Source: Flaccisagitta enflata
Taxonomy: Eukaryota
Reading direction: 5' to 3'
DNA length: 64,000 nucleotides
NCBI GenBank assembly: GCA_965153355.1
Contig: OZ231126.1
Coordinates: 23,312,001 to 23,376,000 of the forward strand
The translations under genes and the position numbers were made by a program. The notes under the pieces are model-generated. The model had not been told where the DNA came from, searched no databases, and worked only from the letters and a program-made list of their open reading frames with translations. Below are positions 13,098-63,878 of this stretch, piece after piece (positions within the stretch are counted from its first letter, which is position 1; each line of letters begins with the position of its first letter).

Positions 13098-13208
13098 ATG
13101 GGTGACTCTGAGCTGCCAAAAGACGCTCCACGCCCACGGCTGTGCCATTTGGTGAAGAGGATCGATTTTGTGGGATATGGATTCAATTTACACGCCGAGA
13201 GAAACAAG
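13098..13208 (+). CDS. Sip1: NHERF/EBP50-like PDZ scaffold, coding exon 1 (MGDSELPKDAPRPRLCHLVKRIDFVGYGFNLHAERNK)
   Basis: ATG at 13098. PRLC..GYGFNLH is the NHERF-type PDZ start with the GYGF carboxylate-binding loop. The exon ends AAG|GCAAGT (GC donor, phase 0), in frame with the next exon. Confidence 0.9.
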
Positions 13209-13781
13209 GCAAGTTGATGATTAAACGTTGAGTATTCTGACAGGGGGGGGTGTTGAATTGATTTGGGGTATGTTTTCGTAGTTTGTCGTTTGTTTGTTTT
13301 TGTTTGTTTTTTGTTTGTCTTTCTTTTTTTCTGGACAATTTTTTCTCGAAATAATATCTGCATGTACAAAATTGAGGATCGGGATAGTCCAGAGTTGGCA
13401 AGTACAAGGCCAAGTAATAGGTCTCACATAATTAGGCGGAAAAGTATAATGATCAAAATACATAGTAAAAATGCCCTCAGCATGATGAAATTTGACATGG
13501 AGATAGCTCAGACTTAGTATTTTGACGTAGCGAGGCGATGTTGGCGACTTTCCTGCATGTAGGGCAAGATGGAGGGTGTTTTACCAAAAGTGAGGTGTCA
13601 GATTATTGCTGATTTTTAAGGAAAAAGTGTAGCAAAGTGGAAGACGTTTGCCATTCGTGATTTGAAGAGGATAGAATGCAAAAAAACTGTCATTTATCGT
13701 GTAATGCAGTTGGTGGATGCAGGAGAGTCAGTCATGCAGAAAGAAAGCCGTGTATGTTGACAGCAGTTAAAGATTTGTAGG

Positions 13782-22764: not shown

Positions 22765-22840
22765 GTTGGTCAGTATGTGGGGAAGGTGGACGAGGGTTCT
22801 CCTGCTGCGCTATCAGGAATGAAAGAACATGACAGAATAG
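22765..22840 (+). CDS. Sip1: NHERF-like exon 2 (VGQYVGKVDEGSPAALSGMKEHDRI)
   Basis: Acceptor ttttttatag, donor G|GTGAGT (phase 1). PDZ core GQYV..V..GSPA...G....DRI. Confidence 0.93.
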
Positions 22841-22876
22841 GTGAGTCACTGTTGATGTGTGTGTGTGAGTCACTGT

Positions 22877-26710: not shown

Positions 26711-26914
26711 TTGAAGTGAACGGCGTGAACATCGGCAACGAGAATCACAAACAGGTCGTCGAACGCATCAAAACCAATCCCAACGAGACCCAGCTGCTCG
26801 TCGTAGACCGGAACACAGACAATTTCTACAGAGACAAGAAGATCGTCATCAAAGGCACACTGCCTACTGTACTTTACCTCAAAAACCCTACGGTCGAAGA
26901 AGAAAGGCTCAATG
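26711..26914 (+). CDS. Sip1: NHERF-like exon 3 (VEVNGVNIGNENHKQVVERIK...LLVVDRNTDNFY...)
   Basis: Acceptor ccttacccag, donor G|GTGAGA. C-terminal half of the PDZ domain (EVNG, H..VV..IK, LLVVD); phases match the flanking exons. Confidence 0.95.
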
Positions 26915-27154
26915 GTGAGAAGGGGGTTGGTGTTGATGTTGTTGTTTTCATTGTTGCTGTTATTGTTATTATTGTTGTTAGTGTTGTTGGTGTTGGTGTT
27001 GTTGTTGTTGTCGTTGTTTTTGTTACTGTTGTTGGTGTTGTTGTTGTTGTTTTTGTTGTTGTTGTTATTGTTGTTGTTATTGTTGTTCTTTGTTCTTCTT
27101 CTGTTTCATTTTCCTCTTCTGGTTATAAAACACTCACTTCGATCTTTTCAACAG

Positions 27155-44738: not shown

Positions 44739-44857
44739 GGAGATGTTGTTGGAGATGTTGTTGGAGTTGTTGTTGTTGTTGTTGGAGATGTTGTTGTTGT
44801 TGTTGTTGTTGTTGTTGGAGATGATGTTGGAGTTGTTGTAGTTGTTGTTTTTGGAGA

Positions 44858-44939
<82 letters not shown>

Positions 44940-45993
44940 GGAGATGTTGTTGTTGTTGTTGTTGTTATTGTTGTTGTTGGAGATGTTGTTGGAGATGTTG
45001 TTGGAGTTGTTGTTTTTGTTGTTGTTGGAGATGTTGTTGTTGTTGTTGTTGTTGTTGGAGATGTTGTTGGAGTTGTTTTAGTTGTTGTTTTTGGAGATGT
45101 TGTTGGAGTTGTTGTTGTTGTTGTTGGAGATGTTGTTGTTGTTGTTGTTGTTGTTGGAGATGTTGTTGGAGTTGTTGTTTTTGTTGTTGTTGGAGATGTT
45201 GTTGTTGTTGTTGTTGTTGGAGATGTTGTTGGAGTTGTTGGAGTTGTTGTTTTTGGAGACGTTGTTGGAGTTGTTGTTGTTGTTGTTGGAGATGTTGTTG
45301 TTGTTGTTGTTGTTGTTGGAGATGTTGTTGGAGTTGTTGTTTTTGTTGTTGTTGGAGATGTTGTTGTTGTTGTTGTTGTTGTTGGAGATGTTGTTGGAGT
45401 TGTTGTAGTTGTTGTTTTTGGAGATGTTGTTGGAGTTGTTGTTGTTGTTGTTGGAGATGTTGTTGTTGTTGTTGCTGTTGTTGGAGATGTTGTTGGAGTT
45501 GTTGTTTTTGTTGTTGTTGGAGATGTTGTTGTTGTTGTTGTTGTTGTTGTTGGAGATGTTGTTGTAGTTGTTGTTTTTGGAGATGTTGTTGGAGTTGTTG
45601 TTGTTGTTGGAGATGTTGTTGTTGTTGTTGTTGTTGTTGTTGGAGATGTTGTTGGAGTTGTCGAAACAGACGATGAAGATAAGGGAGGAGGCGCTGATGA
45701 AGAGGAGGCTCCTGGATTGTCACGTTTACGGAAATGGGTTGTCAAAGCAGAAACTAAAGATGAGGGGGGAGACGCTGATACAGGTGAGTTGCCTTGAGGG
45801 GGGTGCAAAGTTGTAGCAGATGTGGACCGAAAGTTGCCATCCTTGTCAATTCTGGAAGTTGAAGTTGAAGTTGAAGTTGAAGTTGAAGTTGAAGTTGAAG
45901 TTGAAGATATGGGAGGAGGTGGTAATGAAGAGGAGGCTCCTGGCTTGTCATCATGAGGAAAATGCTCCCATTTGTATTTGTTGTAGAAATAAT
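44531..45993 (-). CDS. Mucin-like (Thr/Ser/Pro) single-pass membrane protein, terminal exon; paralogous TM segment shared with the sushi gene
   Basis: Acceptor tctctctcctctcag (phase 1). One frame stays open through a unique N-terminal part, about 950 nt of TTPTTSP repeats, the TM segment PRNLLGFIIAIVLLLIVIIAVTYRRNK and a short tail. Upstream exons are unresolved. Confidence 0.65.
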
Positions 45994-53061: not shown

Positions 53062-53653
53062 TCACATGAGTACCTCATAATCAGGAAGCTCTACCCTGTC
53101 GTCAGAACCCGGCCTATTCACAAAACGCACGATGGTCGATTTGATTTTTTCTTTGTTTCTTCGATAAGTCACCCCAGTGACGACTATGAGTAAAAGGAAA
53201 ATGGCAATAATGAATCCCAGCAGATTCCTTGGGAAAGAATCTAAGGGAGCGCAACTGTAATCATATTTGGTATAATTTCCCCCCTGTTTTTCCTGCATCG
53301 GAACAATATTTCCATTACTGCACCAGACGTGGATTGTTTTTAGGCCCTCTATCATTTCATATCCACTTTTGCAACTTTTTTCACATTTTGATTCTATTTC
53401 GTTGACCCTCTCGCATTTCCACGCAACGTTGGCATCCACATCCGTAGGTGGACACGGAGTGCGGATCGCACATCTGTGTTCCTCACGCCATTTTCCAGTT
53501 TTGTCGCATTGGAAGACAGACTTTGCATTCGATCCTTCGAGACATGGTCGAGAACACTCAGCGTTGAAGTGATAACCTGAACAGTTCCAAAAGGGACTGG
53601 TTCCGTTTTCTTTTCTACCGGCATTGAGATCTGAGCATGAAATTGATGAAGAG
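53062..53653 (-). CDS. Sushi protein terminal exon: two CCP domains, TM helix (NLLGFIIAIFLLLIVVTGVTY), basic stop-transfer RRNK and a tail ending DYEVLM*
   Basis: Acceptor ttttcttttcccccag, phase 2; open frame to the stop at 53062; Cys/Trp spacing of selectin-type sushi repeats. Confidence 0.88.
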
Positions 53654-56016: not shown

Positions 56017-58045
56017 CAGTAGATGTTGTCTAGACTTAGAAATACGGGGGAGCTCATAACCTGAGTATTAGTAAAGTGAGGGGGCTGATATTTTGCAGAT
56101 GTAATGTGTAAACCCTAAAGGATTGACAATGGGGTATGATATCCCCCTACGGCTTATCTTAGGAAAAAGACTTTTAGTATAAAACTATAGGAACAATCAT
56201 TTTTAGTCGCGTGCAAGCGACTCTACACCTTGCCGTGTCGGTCGGTAGGTCCGTCGGTAGGTCCGTCCGTCCGTCCGTCACATTTTTGAAATTATGACTT
56301 TTTAAGGTTATTTAGGGTCATTTAAGGTACTCTAGGGTATTTCAGGGTACTTTAGGGTACTTTGGGGTACTTAAGTTATTCTAGGTACTTAAGGTGCTTG
56401 GGTACTTTTGGGTACTTTAGGGTACTTTAGGGCACATAAGGGTACTTAATGGTTTTTAAGGTATTTAAAAAAATGAATGTAGATTAGGGTACTGAAGGTT
56501 ATTTTAGGGTACAGAAGGTTACTTTAGGGTACCTAAAGGTATTTTTTTGCATTTCAAAATATTTTAGGCGGCGGTGGAGCCGCTCGCCGAGTCGGCGGCT
56601 TAAGTATGTAAATATGTAAGTATGTAATTAGGTAAGTATGTAATTATGTAAGTATGTAATTATGTAAGTATGTAAGTATGTAAGTAAGTATGTAGTATGT
56701 AAGTATGTAGTAAGTAAGTATGTAGTATGTTAAGTATGTAGTATGAAGTTATGTAGTTGTGTGTAGTATGAAGTTGTGTACATTATTAACATTTTTAACA
56801 TTTTTAACATTTTTAACGTATGTAAGTATGTAAGTATGTAAGTACGTAAGTATGTGAGTATGTAGGTAAGTATGTAAGTAAGTATGTAAGTAAGTATGTA
56901 AGTAAGTATGTAAGTATGTAAGTAAGTATGTAAGTATGTATGTAAGTATGTAAATATGTAAGTATGTAAGTAAGTATGTAAGTATGTAAGTAAGTAAGCA
57001 TGTAAGTATGTAAGTATGTGAGTATGTAGGTAAGTATGTAAGTATATATGTAAGTATATATGTAAGTATGTAAGTATTTAAGTATGTAAGTATGTAAGTA
57101 TGTAAGTACTTAAGTATGTAAGCAGTGAGTATGTAGGTAAGTATGTAAGTATGTATGTATTTAAGTTAGTAAGTATGTATGTAAGTATGTAAGTACTGTT
57201 ATGTAAGTATGTGAGTATGTAGGTAAGTATATAAGCATGTAAGTAAGTATGTAAGTAAGTATGTAAGTAAGTATGTAAGTATGTATGTAAGTATGTAAGG
57301 ATGTATGTATGTAAATATGTAAGTAAGTATGTATGTATGTATGTATGTATGTATGTATGTATGTCTGACGTATGTATGTAAGCAAGTATATATGTAAGTA
57401 GTTAAGTAAGTATGTAAGTATGTAAGTAAGTATGTAAGTAAGTATGTATGTAAGTTTGCATGTAAGTAAGTATGTAAGTATGTAAGTATGTAGTATGTAT
57501 GTAAGTATGTAAGTAAATATGTAAGTATGTATGTATGTATGTAAGTATGTAAATATGTAAGTATGTAATTAGGTAAGTATGTATTTATGTAAGTATGTGA
57601 GTATGTAAGTATGTAAGTATGTAAGTAAGTATGTAGTATGTATGTATGTAGTAAGTAAGTATGTAGTATGTTAAGTATGTAGTATGAAGTTATGTAGTTG
57701 TGTGTAGTATGAAGTTGTGTAGTTTTATGTAACTTAGCACGCGACTGTTGGCCTGTTGGGCTTGTTTTTGCAGAATTTCAGCTTCATCTATTTGCTGGAA
57801 TAGTAAAACCAGCCGTGGATTTAAACCTTAAATTAAAAGATCAGTAACTGATAAATCTGATGTCAAGTGAGTTAACCACTAGACCAACTTCTGAAGCTGA
57901 TTTTATGACGAGAATTTGATTGAGTGTATTAAAGGGAGTTTTCCATCCACAGAGCTGCCATACCCCATCGTCAACCCTTCAGGTCATAAGCATTATACAT
58001 ACACAGTTTCAGCCCTGTATTTCTAAGTCTAGACAACATCTACTG
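56017..58045. mobile_element. Tc1/mariner-type MITE carrying a nested hairpin element and a TAAGTATG satellite
   Basis: TIR CAGTAGATGTTGTCTAGACTTAGAAATAC at both ends with TA; the same terminus also appears near 47030-47058. Confidence 0.85.
56600..57732 (+). repeat. (TAAGTATG)n satellite
   Basis: Directly visible. Confidence 0.95.
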
Positions 58046-58464: not shown

Positions 58465-58640
58465 CTGACACATTTTTCATGGGGATAAATCCAGCTACCG
58501 TCATCAGAGCAAGTTGCCAGAATTTCCTTCTTTGCGATAAATTTTTGGTGGCAAATCAATTTACATTGGTATCCGGTTAGAATCCCTTCCGATCCGCACT
58601 GACACCTCCAATAACCGTTCTTTCCTACAACTGTGGCAGC
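58465..58640 (-). CDS. Sushi protein exon (AATVVGKNGYWRCQCGSEGILTGYQCKLICHQKFIAKKEILATCSDDGSWIYPHEKCV)
   Basis: Acceptor attttctcag, phase 0; remainder of the third CCP domain. The 3' boundary is uncertain (see the GA donor finding). Confidence 0.8.
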
Positions 58641-60233
58641 CTGAGAAAATATGATTTTTTTAGCAAGTTAGTGCAGGAATTACGAATTATATTTCCTATT
58701 TAGCAAAGATTTGATGTACAGGTGCAGATGGACACTGTCCATTGGACAGGGGGAGTGTAGCAGAAAGAGTACTTGAGATTAATGTAGGGACAGTGATGGC
58801 AAAACTACCTAAAATGTAGTGGAATTTGTTTGGCCAGATGGACAGATGGACGAATGTGAGTAATAGAAATACTGTCAGGCCATGGAAATGGTTCATAGGT
58901 GAGAGGCAAGAGATCAGAGGTCTGATATAAGATTAAACCTCGGGGGTCGCTCAGGGTATTCCCAGATTGCTTGAGGTTGCAATCCCCAAGCAACCCCAAA
59001 TGAACGAAAGGCAACCCTAAGGCAATCCCGAGGCAACCCCAGGCAACGCTGAGAAATTCCCAGAGTACAAACATAACAGACAAACCTCAAGACAATATTC
59101 TAAGAAAAACAATGAATATAATATAATTATAACAAGGCCAGATACACGGCTACCCTAGTAGCGTGCGGGTGGGCAGGAGCAGTGCTAGAGAAGGTAACTA
59201 GGGCATCTGGGCAGGAGCCATATGCTCAGAAAGCTCAAAAAAGCCGAAAAAATTAATAGTCGCAAAAGCGTTAGATGATCAGCGGTACCTGTGCCCTGCT
59301 TAAGTAGGTTGTGGTAGAAGTTGAGTGGGGAGCAGGTCCCAAAGGGGTCGATGACCTGTACTTTCACACATATGGGGAATTTATTTCTCCTTCTCCTTCT
59401 TCTTCTCCTTCTCCTTCTCCTTCTCCTCCTCCGCACCCCCTCTCCCCCAAGCCTCAAGGCCCATATCTCAGCCTCGAGGCTCATATCCCAGCATCAAGGC
59501 CCAAATCCCAGTCTTGAGGCCCAAATCCCTTGAGGCTGGAATTAGGGCCTTAGGGTTGGGATTTGGGCCTCAAGACTGGGATCTGGGCCCCGAGGCTGGG
59601 ATATGGGCCTCGAGGTTGAGAAATGGGCCTCGAGGCTTGGGGGAGGGGGGGGGGGGTACAAAGGAGGAGAAGGAGGAGAAGAAGAAGGAGAAGGAGGAGA
59701 AAATTCCCCATATGTGTGAAAGCATAGGTCATCGACCCCTTTGGGGCTGCTGCCCAAAAGGGGACCAACCAACCGACCAACCCACCAACCCACCAACCGA
59801 CTGACTGACGGACCAACATAGCGGGGTGTAGAGTCGCGTAGCACGCGACTAACAACTGCAAAATCAAAAACAGTAACGTCAACTCCAAGCAACTCCGAGG
59901 TAACCCCGAGGTAATCCGGAGGCAGCCCCTTGAGTAGCCGAGTAGTCCGAGACAACCCGAGCAATCCTGAGAGTTGCGGGCCGAGATAACCCAAAGCAAC
60001 CCCGAGCAATCCCGAGACAACCCAGAGCAACCCCAAGCAATCTGGAGCAACCCCCGGGTTTTATCTTGAAGTTATATACTACGCGTTTCCCAGTGTCACA
60101 CAGGTTTGAAAGTATCAACTATTGTATTTTCCCTTGAGTAAACAAAGAATTTTACTGTACTTAATGTAATGATTTTCGTTTCCTTTTATCATTCTTCTAT
60201 CTTCTACTTATGATTTCATAAGAATGCAATCAC

Positions 60234-60319
60234 CGGTGGCATTTTGCAGGTTACGATTTCACAGTTTTCTTTCGGTTCGGACCATATCCGGTTGGCTTGA
60301 CACGTCCGAGATACACCGT
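60234..60319 (-). CDS. Sushi protein, remainder of the interrupted exon (SRTCQANRIWSEPKENCEIVTCKMPP)
   Basis: Removing the MITE plus one TA restores GGA GAC ATA TCT CGG ACG TGT (GDISRTC). Donor CCG|GTGATT, phase 0. Confidence 0.8.
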
Positions 60320-61075
60320 CTTTAAATCGAAATGGCAAATAGTAAACCTTTGTAGCTCCAAAACTACTAGCCTGAAAGCCTTCAAATTTTCAGTGAATGT
60401 TGGTAACAACTGACCATTTTGTCATGCCAAAACTCAGATTTCAATATTGAATAGTTTGGGGGTCATTAAAGCATTGAATAAGCCATCAATTTCATGGAAA
60501 AAATCAATTTCTCCTTGCTACCCTTAGAAGAATCTTTTTCTTCATTGATTTTTTCCTGGTTAAGCAAGCTTGGACCCTGGGGTTGGTCTTAAAAGAAGAG
60601 TAACAAATCATGAATATAAGTTCTGCTTAAAAATTTCATCATTTTATTGTATTTATGAAGATTTGAATGATTTTCAAATGATTGACATTCTGGATTTTAG
60701 CAATGATTGTCAAAAACCAATGATAACCTCAAAGTATTTCTAACTTTTTTCAACTTTTTTTGGTAAATGTGTAGTCTTTGAAAAATTTCCTATCATTTGA
60801 GACCAACCCCGGAGTTCTAGCTCAATTTCTTTGACATCTGTATATGGATAAAGACAAGTCTTCTCAAATAAAACAAGAAAAAAAGATTAAGCCTTGAAAA
60901 TTTGGCCTATTCCGTTTATTTTACTGACTCCAAACTATTCAGAATGAAAATCTTGGTTTTTGCATGATAAAATGGTCACTTGTTACCAACCTTCACTGAA
61001 AATTTGAAGGCCTCTGGGCTAGTGGTTTTGGAGCTACAAAGGTTTACTATTTGCCATTTCGATTTAGATACGGTG
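60314..61075. mobile_element. Tc1/mariner-type MITE with long TIRs, inserted in a coding exon
   Basis: TIR CACCGT...TAAATCGAAATGGCAAATAGTAAACCTTTGTAGCTCCAAAAC extends about 150 bp at both ends; TA at 60312-60313 and 61076-61077. Confidence 0.93.
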
Positions 61076-61250
61076 TATGTCTCCTGTTCTCCTATGAATT
61101 CCTCTCCAAGGAGGGCAAATCCACGAACAATTGGATTTGAATTTGTTATCTTGCGTACAAGAGGAATTGGCCGGTATCTCATTGGCAGGACAGGATACTG
61201 GTTTGCAGACTACGTCCGTTGAAGTCCATGTCCGATTCGATTGACAGAAG
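61072..61250 (-). CDS. Sushi protein exon (FCQSNRTWTSTDVVCKPVSCPANEIPANSSCTQDNKFKSNCSWICPPWRGIHRRTGDI), cut by a MITE
   Basis: Acceptor ttttactgcaacag, phase 2, matches the previous donor; C...W....C CCP pattern. The frame runs into the MITE at the TA (61076-61077). The 61072 end assumes the proposed MITE-internal donor. Confidence 0.8.
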
Positions 61251-61309
61251 CTGTTGCAGTAAAAACTAAAAAGTCATTGCGATTCTTGCACAGTGCACAA
61301 AACACTCTC

Positions 61310-61469
<160 letters not shown>

Positions 61470-61499: not shown

Positions 61500-61704
61500 C
61501 TTTCAGAAATTGTTCCATTTGGCAAAAAATATCCATCGTCGCATTTGAATTTGCAAGTTGTGTTGATCAGGGAAGTTGTATTGATCAGGGAAGTAGTGTT
61601 GATCAGGGAAGTAGTGTTGATCAGGAAATGTTCGTTGGTGCAATTCCACTGTCCGTTAGAAACAGGAAACGCTTGTCCAATTTCTACGCATACATCCCAA
61701 TCAC
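61500..61704 (-). CDS. Sushi/CCP membrane protein, first recognisable exon (DWDVCVEIGQAFPVSNGQWNCTNEHF(LINTTS)3LINTTCKFKCDDGYFLPNGTISE)
   Basis: Minus-strand acceptor cttaag, donor AG|GTAAAC, phase 1 to 2; CCP motifs NG.W.C and C.F.C..GY. Confidence 0.85.
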
Positions 61705-62349: not shown

Positions 62350-63878
62350 AAACAAGGCCAACACCTATAAGTCGCGTGCGAGACTTACTTAATTACGTTA
62401 TCGCCTAATTGTATAAGTACGTTATTTCCTGTAATCACGATAATGACTACAACTACCTATTGACCTATAATTGCCTATAATGACCTATAATTACCTATAA
62501 TTACCTATAATTACCCATAATTAAATACTGACCTATAAGTACCTATAAAGACCTATGATTACCTATAATTACATATGGACCAATAATTACCTATAATGAC
62601 CTATTATTACTCATAATTACCCATAATTACCCATAATAACATAATAACCTATAATTACCTATAATGACCTATGATTACCTATGATTACCTATAATTGCAT
62701 AATGACCTATAATTACCTATAGTGACCTATGATTACCTTTAATGACCTTTGATTACCTATAATAATCCATAATTTCATAATGACCTATAATTACCTATAA
62801 TTACCTTTAATGACCTATAATAACCTTTAATTACATAATGACCTATAATACTTATAATGATCTATAATAACCTTTAATTACCTATAATTATCTATAATTA
62901 CATAATGACCTATAATTACCAATAATGACCTTTAATTGCATAATGACCTATAATGACCTATAGTTACGTATGATGACCTATGATTACCTATAATAACATA
63001 ATGACCTATGATTACTTATAATTACCTACAATGACCTATAATTACCTATAATTTCCTATATTTACCTATGATTATATACTGACCTATAATTACCCATAAT
63101 GACCTACAATTGCATGATAACCTATAATTACCCTTAATGACCTATAATTACCTATGATTACATAATGACCTATAATAACCTATAATGACCTATGATTACC
63201 TATAATGACCTATGATTACCTATAATTGCATAATGTCATATAATGACCTATGATTACCTATAATTACCCAAAATTGCATAATGACCTATAATTACCTATA
63301 ATTATGTAAATAAAAAGTGCAATGACTATACTATGCGAATTAAAAAAATGACTGAAATGATATAAAATGACATAAATTGACTTAAATTGACTTATACTGA
63401 CTTATACTGACTTAAATTGACTTAAAATGACTTGAATTTACCTGAAATGACTTGAATTTACCTAAAATGAGTTAAATTGACTTAAAATGACCTAAATTGA
63501 CTTAAATAAACTAAAATTCAAAAATGACTTAAAATGAATTAAATTGACTTATACTGCCTTAAATTGACTTATACTGAGTTGAACTGACCTGTATTGACTT
63601 GAATTTATTAAAATGACTTAAAATGACCTAGATTGTCTAAATTGACTAAAATTCAATGATGACACAAATGACTTAATTTGACTTAAAGTGACTTAAAATG
63701 ATTTAAAATGACTTAAAATGATCTAATTTGACTCAAAATCACATAATTGACTTAAAATGACTTGATAGGAATAAAACGAATAAAAAAAGTAAAATGGGGA
63801 CCGACCAACCGACCGACCAACCGACCAACCGACGGACGGACAAAGCGGGGTATAGAGTCGCGTGCACGCGACTAAAAA
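62350..63878 (-). mobile_element. AGTCGCGTGCACGCGACT-hairpin family element (Helentron/DINE-1-like) with satellite cargo. Other copies near 9928-10192, 18050-18222, 34098-34303, 38253-39035, 48983-50618 and 56199-57768
   Basis: One end has TTTT plus a hairpin and a (CCGT/GGTC)n microsatellite; the other ends GGCCTTGTT. Confidence 0.6.
62440..63765 (+). repeat. 10-bp satellites (AATTACCTAT/AATGACCTAT, then AAATGACTTA)
   Basis: Directly visible. Confidence 0.92.

What the first reader, a model, noticed from the sequence alone, without database searches (positions are those of the whole stretch)
60312..61077. A MITE inside a coding exon whose asymmetric TIR ends form an in-frame intron (introner-like intron gain)
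Seen: a 762-bp TA-duplicating MITE splits the second sushi domain between GDI and SRTC. On the gene strand its 5' end reads CACC|GTATCT (GT at 61071) and its 3' end reads TTTACTATTTGCCATTTCGATTTAAAG|ACGGTG (AG at 60321-60320). Splicing out 61071-60320 removes 752 of the 764 inserted nt and leaves GDI-HHGV-SRTC, in frame. The two TIRs differ exactly here (CACCGTATCT versus CACCGTCTTT). A symmetric end would give TAG|ATACGGTG, which is out of frame, so the asymmetry is what creates the frame-preserving acceptor. AAG acceptors are also used in the NHERF gene model in this window. Established: non-autonomous DNA transposons (introners) create spliceosomal introns in several aquatic lineages. Inference: this is either a rescued insertion or recent intron gain, or else a simple knockout allele.
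Basis: partly seen in the sequence, partly recalled or inferred. Interest (0 to 1): 0.8.

Follow-up and report, generated by a model that had tools for sequence, protein, structure and literature searches.

The report
Segregating MITE insertion in a coding exon
A small hairpin-forming jumping-gene fragment sits inside a protein-coding exon on this haplotype while other individuals carry the intact exon, so it is a young insertion variant, and nothing yet shows that it is removed from the messenger RNA as a new intron.

Summary
The sequence facts hold. A 762-bp non-coding element (60314-61075) with about 150-nt inverted ends and a TA duplication splits a sushi-type exon on the minus strand between GDI and SRTC. 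A GT at 61071 and an AG at 60321-60320 would leave 12 nt in frame (HHGV).

The intron reading is untested and is not favoured.
- DNA contigs from a second sample of the same organism and from a marine metagenome join 60311 to 61076 exactly. The intact exon therefore exists, and the insertion is a segregating allele, not a fixed intron.
- The element family is extremely abundant.
- The one RNA run of the organism laid no read on the stretch. A metatranscriptome held only element-internal pieces, so splicing was not tested.
- The proposed donor ACC|GTATCT is far weaker than the five donors I could place in the window.
- 29 in-frame, stop-free GT-AG pairs exist, so finding one is expected by chance.
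- The acceptor-side end appears to be the family's usual terminus; the donor side is the variant one.
- Unspliced read-through stops after three codons.

If the mRNA is rescued at all, hairpin-triggered "SOS" excision (Nature 2025) is at least as likely as this GT/AAG splice.

The parts
60314..61075 (.). 762-bp non-autonomous DNA transposon (MITE); nearly the whole element folds into one hairpin
   Evidence: Read directly. Inverted arms. RNA fold -314.6 kcal/mol, z -20.75 against 20 shuffles. Longest internal stop-to-stop frame is 59 aa. No Rfam match at E<=1. Many contigs with unlike flanks end at 60311/60312.
60312..60313 (.). TA target-site duplication, low-coordinate copy
   Evidence: The empty-site joint 60311->61076 skips 764 nt with 2 letters fitting either side.
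61076..61077 (.). TA target-site duplication, high-coordinate copy (part of codon ATA = Ile of GDI)
60314..60459 (.). Inverted-repeat arm at the gene-strand 3' end. Its terminus CACCGTCTTT (plus strand) looks like the family's usual end.
   Evidence: No variant of 3% or more is listed at 60320 or 60322 despite summed depth 574,025 in X2 (6 rows of that table were not shown).
60930..61075 (.). Inverted-repeat arm at the gene-strand 5' end. Its terminus CACCGTATCT departs from the other arm at positions 7 and 9.
   Evidence: Much lower summed depth than the other arm.
61076..61250 (-). Upstream half of the interrupted coding exon (end of sushi module 1, first part of module 2)
   Evidence: Acceptor ...ctgcaacag|CTTCTG at 61251/61250 and the open frame
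60234..60311 (-). Downstream half of the interrupted exon (SRTCQANRIWSEPKENCEIVTCKMPP), donor CCG|GTGATT at 60233
61070..61071 (-).
   Evidence: 4 of 9 matches to CAG|GTAAGT; -5.0 bits on a rough recalled matrix; rank 26 of 45 GTs in exon plus element
60320..60321 (-).
   Evidence: Rank 8 of 60 AGs. It is the acceptor of the top-ranked, third- and fourth-ranked of the 29 in-frame stop-free combinations.
61064..61066 (-). First in-frame stop (TAA) if the element is read through: GDI-HRI-stop
61500..61704 (-). Preceding sushi exon. Its 5' end is tentative (AAG acceptor at 61707-61705). Donor AAG|GTAAAC.
   Evidence: (Pfam Sushi E 0.011, below cut-off)
58470..58640 (-). Following sushi exon (acceptor ...ttctcag|GCTGCC); 3' end not fixed
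   Evidence: (Pfam Sushi E 0.013, below cut-off)
53065..53653 (-). Last coding exon: sushi-like modules, a hydrophobic span (LLGFIIAIFLLLIVVTGVTY) and a short tail
   Evidence: (Pfam Sushi E 0.0016, 19.2 bits against cut-off 20.7)

Best explanation
This is a young, still-segregating cut-and-paste insertion of a very abundant, TA-targeting, hairpin-forming MITE. It sits in a coding exon of a multi-sushi, single-pass membrane-protein gene. The assembled haplotype carries it; other individuals carry the intact exon.

At the DNA level (shown) it is an insertion allele, not an established intron.

At the RNA level (inferred):
- Read-through ends after three codons (GDI-HRI-stop).
- The default outcome is therefore a truncated protein or a decayed message, that is, a null or weak allele.
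- Any rescue needs the element to be removed from the message.
- I rate removal by pairing of the long inverted ends (SOS-type excision at variable sites near the ends) as more likely than spliceosomal use of the weak GT at 61071 with the AAG at 60320.
For: Insertion anatomy: 762 bp, TA duplication, 152-nt arms at 88%.

Empty site as DNA:
- In X2, a second sample of the same organism, one 613-nt contig (depth 47.8) runs 60060-60311, then 61076-61300. It supplies all the depth on both flanks.
- In X3, a marine metagenome, 1 contig shows the same joint (depth 5.5, 30 letters on the shorter side).

Abundant family:
- 1,766 contigs laid in X2 and 887 in X3.
- Summed depth over the arm is about 12,000 times the flank depth in X2 and about 7,500 times in X3. 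The tool warns that this is no copy number.
- 48 contigs in X2 and 25 in X3 run on into unlike flanks at 60311/60312.
- There is no second copy in the 64-kb window.

The exon is real:
- The frame is continuous across the empty site with a C..C..C..W..C pattern.
- Neighbouring exons give weak Pfam Sushi hits.
- 3 of the 5 differences between the two alleles in the upstream half are synonymous.

RNA-level points:
- Premature stop on read-through.
- Weak donor: -5.0 bits against 2.5 to 8.5 for the four scored of the five donors placed by protein continuity.
- Long hairpin: -314.6 kcal/mol, z -20.75, with both proposed sites at the base of the stem.

Published mechanism: exonic Tc1, Tc3, Tc4 and a human mariner reporter are excised from mRNAs at multiple, rarely GU-AG sites near the inverted ends. 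Excision is triggered by pairing of the ends, and non-autonomous elements are also substrates (PMC12779559, Main parts 1-2 and Discussion read).
Against: - No RNA covering the exon was seen, so none of the RNA fates is shown.
Its frequency is unknown.
- The proposed acceptor is reasonable: about 75% pyrimidines at -5 to -20 by my count, and rank 8 of 60 AGs. One tentative AAG acceptor occurs in the same gene. The GT/AAG pair ranks 4th of 29 in-frame combinations.
- My splice matrix is recalled and human-like, not trained on this organism.
- SOS splicing has been shown only in C. elegans and human cells. The organism here is unnamed and its AKAP17A, CAAP1 and RTCB genes could not be looked for because no genome is held.
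Confidence: 0.75

Rival explanations
1. Reader's reading. The spliceosome removes 61071..60320 using GT at terminal-repeat position 5 and the AAG seven bases from the other end. This leaves four extra residues (HHGV) in sushi module 2, making the element a nascent, introner-like intron.
For: - The arithmetic is right and the product is open.
- The GT at 61071 is the only GT inside the element that lies before the first in-frame stop.
- The acceptor has a fair pyrimidine tract and ranks 8 of 60.
- On the donor side, the A at position 7 gives +3 A instead of the +3 C of the other arm (-5.0 against -8.8 bits).
- A known introner type in Aureococcus also carries both splice sites and adds 12 bp, or 4 residues (PMC9860276, Fig. 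2 legend passage).
- Introners are reported from copepods to protists and are enriched in aquatic species (same paper, abstract passage).
Against: - No junction read was seen, but there was also no coverage, so this is no test.
- The donor has neither G at -1 nor G at +5, matches 4 of 9 positions, and ranks 26 of 45 GTs.
- The donors placed in the window are conventional: GCAAGT, GTGAGT, GTGAGA, GTAAAC, GTGATT.
- The insertion is polymorphic and the intact allele is present elsewhere.
- The two arms differ by 12%, far more than a young insertion could acquire in place. The asymmetry was therefore inherited from the source copy, not selected at this site (inference).
- 29 in-frame combinations exist by chance.
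Confidence: 0.12
2. SOS-type removal. Pairing of the long inverted ends in the exon marks the transcript. The element is cut out at variable, mostly non-GU-AG sites near its ends and the halves are ligated. This gives a mixture of in-frame and out-of-frame messages and a partly buffered allele.
For: - The element has the published trigger: inverted ends able to pair, located in an exon.
- 54-nt ends suffice for Tc1. Scrambled but pairing ends still work. Elements without transposase and endogenous non-autonomous elements are substrates. Efficiency was 90-100% in six exonic Tc1 insertions (PMC12779559).
Against: - It is not tested here at all.
- It has been shown only in a nematode and in human cells.
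- Host factors cannot be checked without a genome.
- Even if it is active, the products may be mostly out of frame: 98% were for Tc3::unc-22.
- An indel next to the third cysteine of a sushi module may not be tolerated (inference).
Confidence: 0.3
3. Artefact: the insertion is an assembly error or a somatic event, not a germline allele.
For: The filled junctions were not seen in X2 or X3 among the pieces shown.
Against: The element has a perfect TA duplication at the exact point where the empty allele has a single TA, complete termini, and the boundaries of the family. A mis-join would not produce these.
Confidence: 0.03

Closest known systems
TA-duplicating MITEs of the Tc1/mariner type (Stowaway-like)
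   Same: Short, non-coding, with terminal inverted repeats, a TA duplication, very many copies and presence/absence polymorphism.
   Different: The arms are unusually long (about 150 nt) and pairing extends through most of the element. No autonomous partner or transposase was identified, so the superfamily is inferred from the TA duplication alone. The family names are recalled, not from a call.
Introners, including the Aureococcus type that carries both splice sites and adds 12 bp (Gozashti et al. 2022, PMC9860276)
   Same: A non-autonomous DNA element inside coding sequence. A GT and an AG lie inside its ends, and using them would leave a 12-nt in-frame footprint.
   Different: No evidence of splicing. 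The donor is weak. Here 10 nt would come from the element and 2 from the duplication, against 4 and 8 in Aureococcus. Whether other copies sit as introns in genes could not be examined. The insertion is not fixed.
SOS splicing substrates such as Tc1::rsd-3 (Zhao et al. 2025, PMC12779559)
   Same: A DNA transposon with pairing inverted ends, inserted at TA in a coding exon of an animal gene, bringing in premature stops.
   Different: A natural allele in a wild marine animal rather than a laboratory nematode allele. The ends are three times longer. Removal from RNA and the host factors are untested.
MITE-derived non-canonical introns of Fritillaria borealis (Henriet et al. 2019, as summarised in review PMC11282704)
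   Same: Introns thought to derive from MITEs in a planktonic animal (passages only).
   Different: That organism mostly uses AG-AC and AG-AT boundaries. The five introns I could place in this window have conventional GT(or GC)-AG boundaries.

Membership tests
MITE (non-autonomous terminal-inverted-repeat DNA transposon) | Terminal inverted repeats | tested here: met
   152-nt arms, 88% complementary; first 59 nt differ at 3 positions
MITE (non-autonomous terminal-inverted-repeat DNA transposon) | Target-site duplication shown against an empty site | tested here: met
   TA on both sides. Empty-site contigs join 60311 to 61076 with 2 ambiguous letters in X2 and X3.
MITE (non-autonomous terminal-inverted-repeat DNA transposon) | Short, with no coding capacity | tested here: met
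   762 bp; longest internal stop-to-stop frame is 59 aa. The internal frames were not scanned against Pfam.
MITE (non-autonomous terminal-inverted-repeat DNA transposon) | Many dispersed copies with unrelated flanks | tested here: met
   1,766 (X2) and 887 (X3) contigs laid. 48 and 25 contigs run into unlike flanks at 60311/60312, with flank agreement 0.39-0.45.
Tc1/mariner superfamily | Related autonomous element with a DDE/D transposase sharing the termini | not testable with these tools
   No genome held. Two scans of metagenome contigs with arm words found 0 loci.
Introner | The copy is removed from mature mRNA as an intron | tested here: inconclusive
   X24 laid 0 reads, with about 6% of the run read. 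X9 covered 13 of 30 bins, all inside the element and none on the exon halves.
Introner | Many near-identical copies serve as introns in unrelated genes | not testable with these tools
   No genome or annotation held. Only one copy in the window.
Introner | Carries or recruits working splice sites | tested here: inconclusive
   GT and AG are present and in frame. However, the donor scores -5.0 bits against 2.5 to 8.5 for donors in the window, on a recalled matrix.
SOS-splicing substrate | Inverted ends able to base-pair within an exon of an mRNA | tested here: met
   Fold z -20.75. The exonic position follows from frame continuity and the empty allele. That the exon is transcribed is not shown.
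SOS-splicing substrate | Excision at variable, mostly non-GU-AG sites near the ends; dependence on AKAP17A, CAAP1 and RTCB | not testable with these tools
   No RNA coverage; no genome
Sushi / CCP repeat protein | Match to Pfam PF00084 above the gathering score | tested here: inconclusive
   3 of 5 exon translations tested hit Sushi at 16.4-19.2 bits, below the 20.7 cut-off. The two halves of the interrupted exon hit nothing. The four-Cys-plus-Trp spacing is visible in the rejoined exon.

The most novel reading that the evidence does not exclude
The family's usual termini (CACC|GT... and ...AG|ACGGTG) plus the TA duplication always add up to 12 nt, in either orientation and in any codon phase. 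Every exonic copy could therefore be removed in frame. On this reading the allele is an intron being born and still segregating in a wild marine animal. It would be removed from the message by the spliceosome, by hairpin-triggered excision, or by both. The family would be an animal introner in the making.
Probability: 0.15. Interest if true: 0.7.

Novelty: new member of a known kind. Interest (0 to 1): 0.3.

Why it matters
As it stands this is an ordinary event: a mobile element has landed in an exon and the allele is still polymorphic.

Its value is as a test case. Both alleles exist in public data, and the element has the long pairing ends that trigger SOS excision in worms and human cells. 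One RT-PCR on a genotyped carrier would show whether a wild animal buffers such an insertion. It would also show whether that happens by the spliceosome (intron birth) or by hairpin-directed excision.

If many exonic copies of this family are removed in frame, it would be a clear animal example of transposon-driven intron gain.

Tried and rejected
- RNA test: X24, poly-A RNA of the same organism, had about 6% of the run read and laid 0 reads. X9, a metatranscriptome, laid 20 contigs, all inside the element. This is no test of splicing and no evidence on expression. The small shares of X9, X19 and X20 are not evidence of expression either.
- RNA editing: T>C is the commonest change in the RNA contigs (8 of 23 places). 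It is equally common in the DNA runs (16 of 44 and 13 of 39), so there is no sign of editing.
- More copies of the family: two exact-word scans of metagenome contigs with arm words found 0 loci. No genome is held. BLAST of the element against the window found only itself and its own arms.
- Annotated or transcript-derived protein spanning the site: a search with the upstream exon half (near lengths) found no candidate. A search with the last exon (longer proteins) scored none of 274 candidates at E <= 0.001.
- Gene content and the NHERF model:
  - Pfam on 147 of the 166 frames of 68 aa or more gave no PDZ. The 19 frames above 59087 were not sent.
  - Pfam on 127 frames gave only a weak PDZ_6 hit, E 0.014. 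These were 125 of the 186 short plus-strand frames, all downstream of 22722, plus the two known exons.
  - Three NHERF-like exons were placed by eye and by motif instead.
- Rfam on 60200-61300 gave no match at E <= 1.
- Earlier findings and the protein atlas were closed.
- The broad lineage of the organism was not established.
- Supplementary tables of the introner papers were not opened. They may list animal introner families with TA duplications.

Full report
**What is there.** On the minus strand the window carries a gene made of sushi-type modules.
- One exon is at about 61704-61500.
- The exon in question is 61250-60234.
- The next exon starts at 58640.
- The last coding exon is 53653-53065. 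It has further Cys/Trp modules, a hydrophobic span and a short tail.
- Three of five exon translations tested hit Pfam Sushi, but below the gathering score: 16.4-19.2 bits against 20.7.

The exon in question is interrupted by a 762-bp element, 60314-61075, flanked by TA on both sides. The repeat finder reports inverted arms of 152 nt at 88% complementarity. A gapless comparison shows only three differences in the first 59 nt, at positions 7, 9 and 52.

As RNA on the gene strand almost the whole element folds into one hairpin: -314.6 kcal/mol, against a mean of -170.2 for 20 shuffles, z -20.75. The longest internal open frame is 59 aa. Rfam finds nothing. There is no second copy in the 64-kb window.

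It is correct. The gene-strand 5' end reads ACC|GTATCT with G at 61071. The 3' end reads TTTAAAG|ACGGTG with AG at 60321-60320. Removing 61071..60320 leaves ...RRTGDI-HHGV-SRTCQ... in frame, whereas the empty site reads ...RRTGDI-SRTCQ.... Read-through gives GDI-HRI-stop.

**Evidence from public reads.** I laid window:60060-61300 against four runs:
- X24, poly-A RNA of the same organism, raw reads;
- X9, a metatranscriptome;
- X2, DNA from a second sample of the same organism;
- X3, a marine metagenome.

Three results matter.

1. *The empty site exists as DNA.*
   - In X2 a single 613-nt contig (depth 47.8) covers 60060-60311 and continues at 61076-61300. It skips 764 nt, with two letters that fit either side, which is the TA.
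   - That contig supplies all the depth on both flanks, so the filled allele is not visible in that sample.
   - X3 shows the same joint in one contig (depth 5.5, 30 letters on the shorter side).
   - The insertion is therefore a presence/absence polymorphism, and the intact exon is present both in another individual and in the sea.
   - The X2 allele differs from the window at five places in the upstream exon half. Three are synonymous and two are Asn/Asp exchanges.

2. *The element belongs to a very abundant family.*
   - 1,766 contigs were laid in X2 and 887 in X3.
   - Summed depth over the low-coordinate arm is about 12,000 times (X2) and 7,500 times (X3) the flank depth. Over the interior it is about 1,800 and 900 times. 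The tool warns that this is not a copy number.
   - 48 contigs in X2 and 25 in X3 reach 60311/60312 and run on into flanks that disagree with one another. This fixes the family boundary at the TA.

3. *RNA gave no test.*
   - X24 laid no read, with about 6% of the run read.
   - X9 laid 20 contigs, all inside the element and none on the exon halves.
   - Splicing of 61071 to 60320 is therefore neither seen nor refuted.

**Is the in-frame GT..AG more than chance?** It is not.
- Exon plus element holds 45 GTs and 60 AGs, and 29 GT-AG pairs are in frame and stop-free.
- The acceptor is fair, at rank 8 of 60.
- The donor is poor. It has no G at -1 and none at +5, matches 4 of 9 positions of CAG|GTAAGT, scores -5.0 bits and ranks 26 of 45.
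- The donors I could place in the window by protein continuity are AAG|GTAAAC, CCG|GTGATT, AAG|GCAAGT, TAG|GTGAGT and ATG|GTGAGA. The four I scored give 2.5 to 8.5 bits; GTGAGA was not scored.
- The matching acceptors are CAG four times and TAG once. There is one tentative AAG at 61707-61705, in the sushi gene rather than the NHERF-like gene.
- The organism thus appears to use conventional splice signals.

**The asymmetry argument.**
- Two of 17 arm mismatches in the first 10 of 146 nt is unremarkable, P = 0.33. Judged against the conserved first 59 nt it is 0.07.
- No variant of 3% or more is listed at 60320 or 60322 under a summed depth of 574,025.
- Contigs pile up on that arm about ten times more than on the other.
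- I infer that CACCGTCTTT is the family's usual terminus at both ends, and that the donor-side CACCGTATCT is the departure. The caveat is that 6 rows of that variant table were not shown.
- A symmetric consensus element would also leave 4 + 6 + 2 = 12 nt, so the frame does not depend on the asymmetry.
- What the A at position 7 does is turn an almost impossible donor, +3 C at -8.8 bits, into a merely weak one.
- The arms differ by 12% while the insertion is young. The asymmetry was therefore inherited from the source copy, not acquired at this site.

**How it most likely works.**
- Shown: a cut-and-paste insertion at a TA in a coding exon, still segregating.
- Inferred: without removal the message ends three codons into the element, so the allele is null or weak.

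For removal there are two routes.
- *SOS splicing.* It was described in December 2025 (PMC12779559; Main parts 1-2 and Discussion read).
  - In C. elegans and human cells, DNA transposons in exons are excised from mRNA at several sites in or near the inverted ends, and rarely at GU-AG.
  - The trigger is pairing of the ends.
  - Elements without transposase and endogenous non-autonomous elements are substrates.
  - Only some products are in frame.

This element has that trigger in strong form. I therefore rate hairpin-directed removal (0.3) above the exact GT/AAG splice (0.12). I rate no useful rescue as the single most likely outcome.

**What is left open.**
- I could not examine other copies of the family, their position in genes or their orientation.
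- I could not find any annotated protein across the site.
- The filled junctions were not checked in reads independent of the assembly.
- The organism's lineage was not determined.

**Verdict.** The sequence observation is real. The interpretation as an introner-like intron gain is not supported by anything beyond arithmetic. The finding is best filed as a polymorphic exonic MITE insertion, a new member of a known kind. It is of moderate interest as a ready-made natural test of how animals handle a DNA transposon in an exon.

Noticed in passing
window 13098-13214, 22765-22857, 26711-26916 (+): An NHERF-like PDZ gene. Exon 1 reads MGDSELPKDAPRPRLCHLVKRIDFVGYGFNLHAERNK and ends in a GC donor (AAG|GCAAGT), followed by a 9.5-kb intron to a TAG acceptor. 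Exon 2 ends TAG|GTGAGT. Exon 3 starts after a CAG acceptor and encodes ...VEVNGVNIGNENHKQVVERIK.... No AAG acceptor was seen in these three exons.
   Followed up: partly
window 61555-61625 (-): An 18-nt tandem repeat (3.9 copies, 94% matches) lies inside the coding exon that precedes the interrupted one. It reads LINTTS four times, so it multiplies an N-x-T glycosylation sequon inside a sushi module.
   Followed up: no
window 61305-61467: A compound (CT)41(TG)41 microsatellite fills much of the short intron just upstream of the interrupted exon.
   Followed up: no
window 60312-60900 (run X9): Pieces of the MITE family, including one contig that reaches the terminus at 60312, are present in a marine metatranscriptome at depths of 9-86. 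This could be transcription of some copies or carried-over DNA.
   Followed up: no
window 60312-60437 versus 60480-60900: Summed depth over the terminal arm is roughly six to eight times that over the interior in both DNA runs. The arm may therefore be shared by several sub-families or by a longer parent element.
   Followed up: no
window 56601-57696; 62463-63304; 63345-63763; 44825-45673: Long tandem arrays: an 8-mer TAAGTATG x138, a 10-mer ACCTATAATT x87 and a 10/20-mer x21-43. In addition, an 850-bp stretch reads as almost pure Cys/Trp/Arg in one frame.
   Followed up: no
window 61707-61705 (-): A tentative AAG acceptor for the first sushi exon seen in the window. A stop codon lies immediately upstream, and there is no other AG before the module's first cysteine.
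   Followed up: partly
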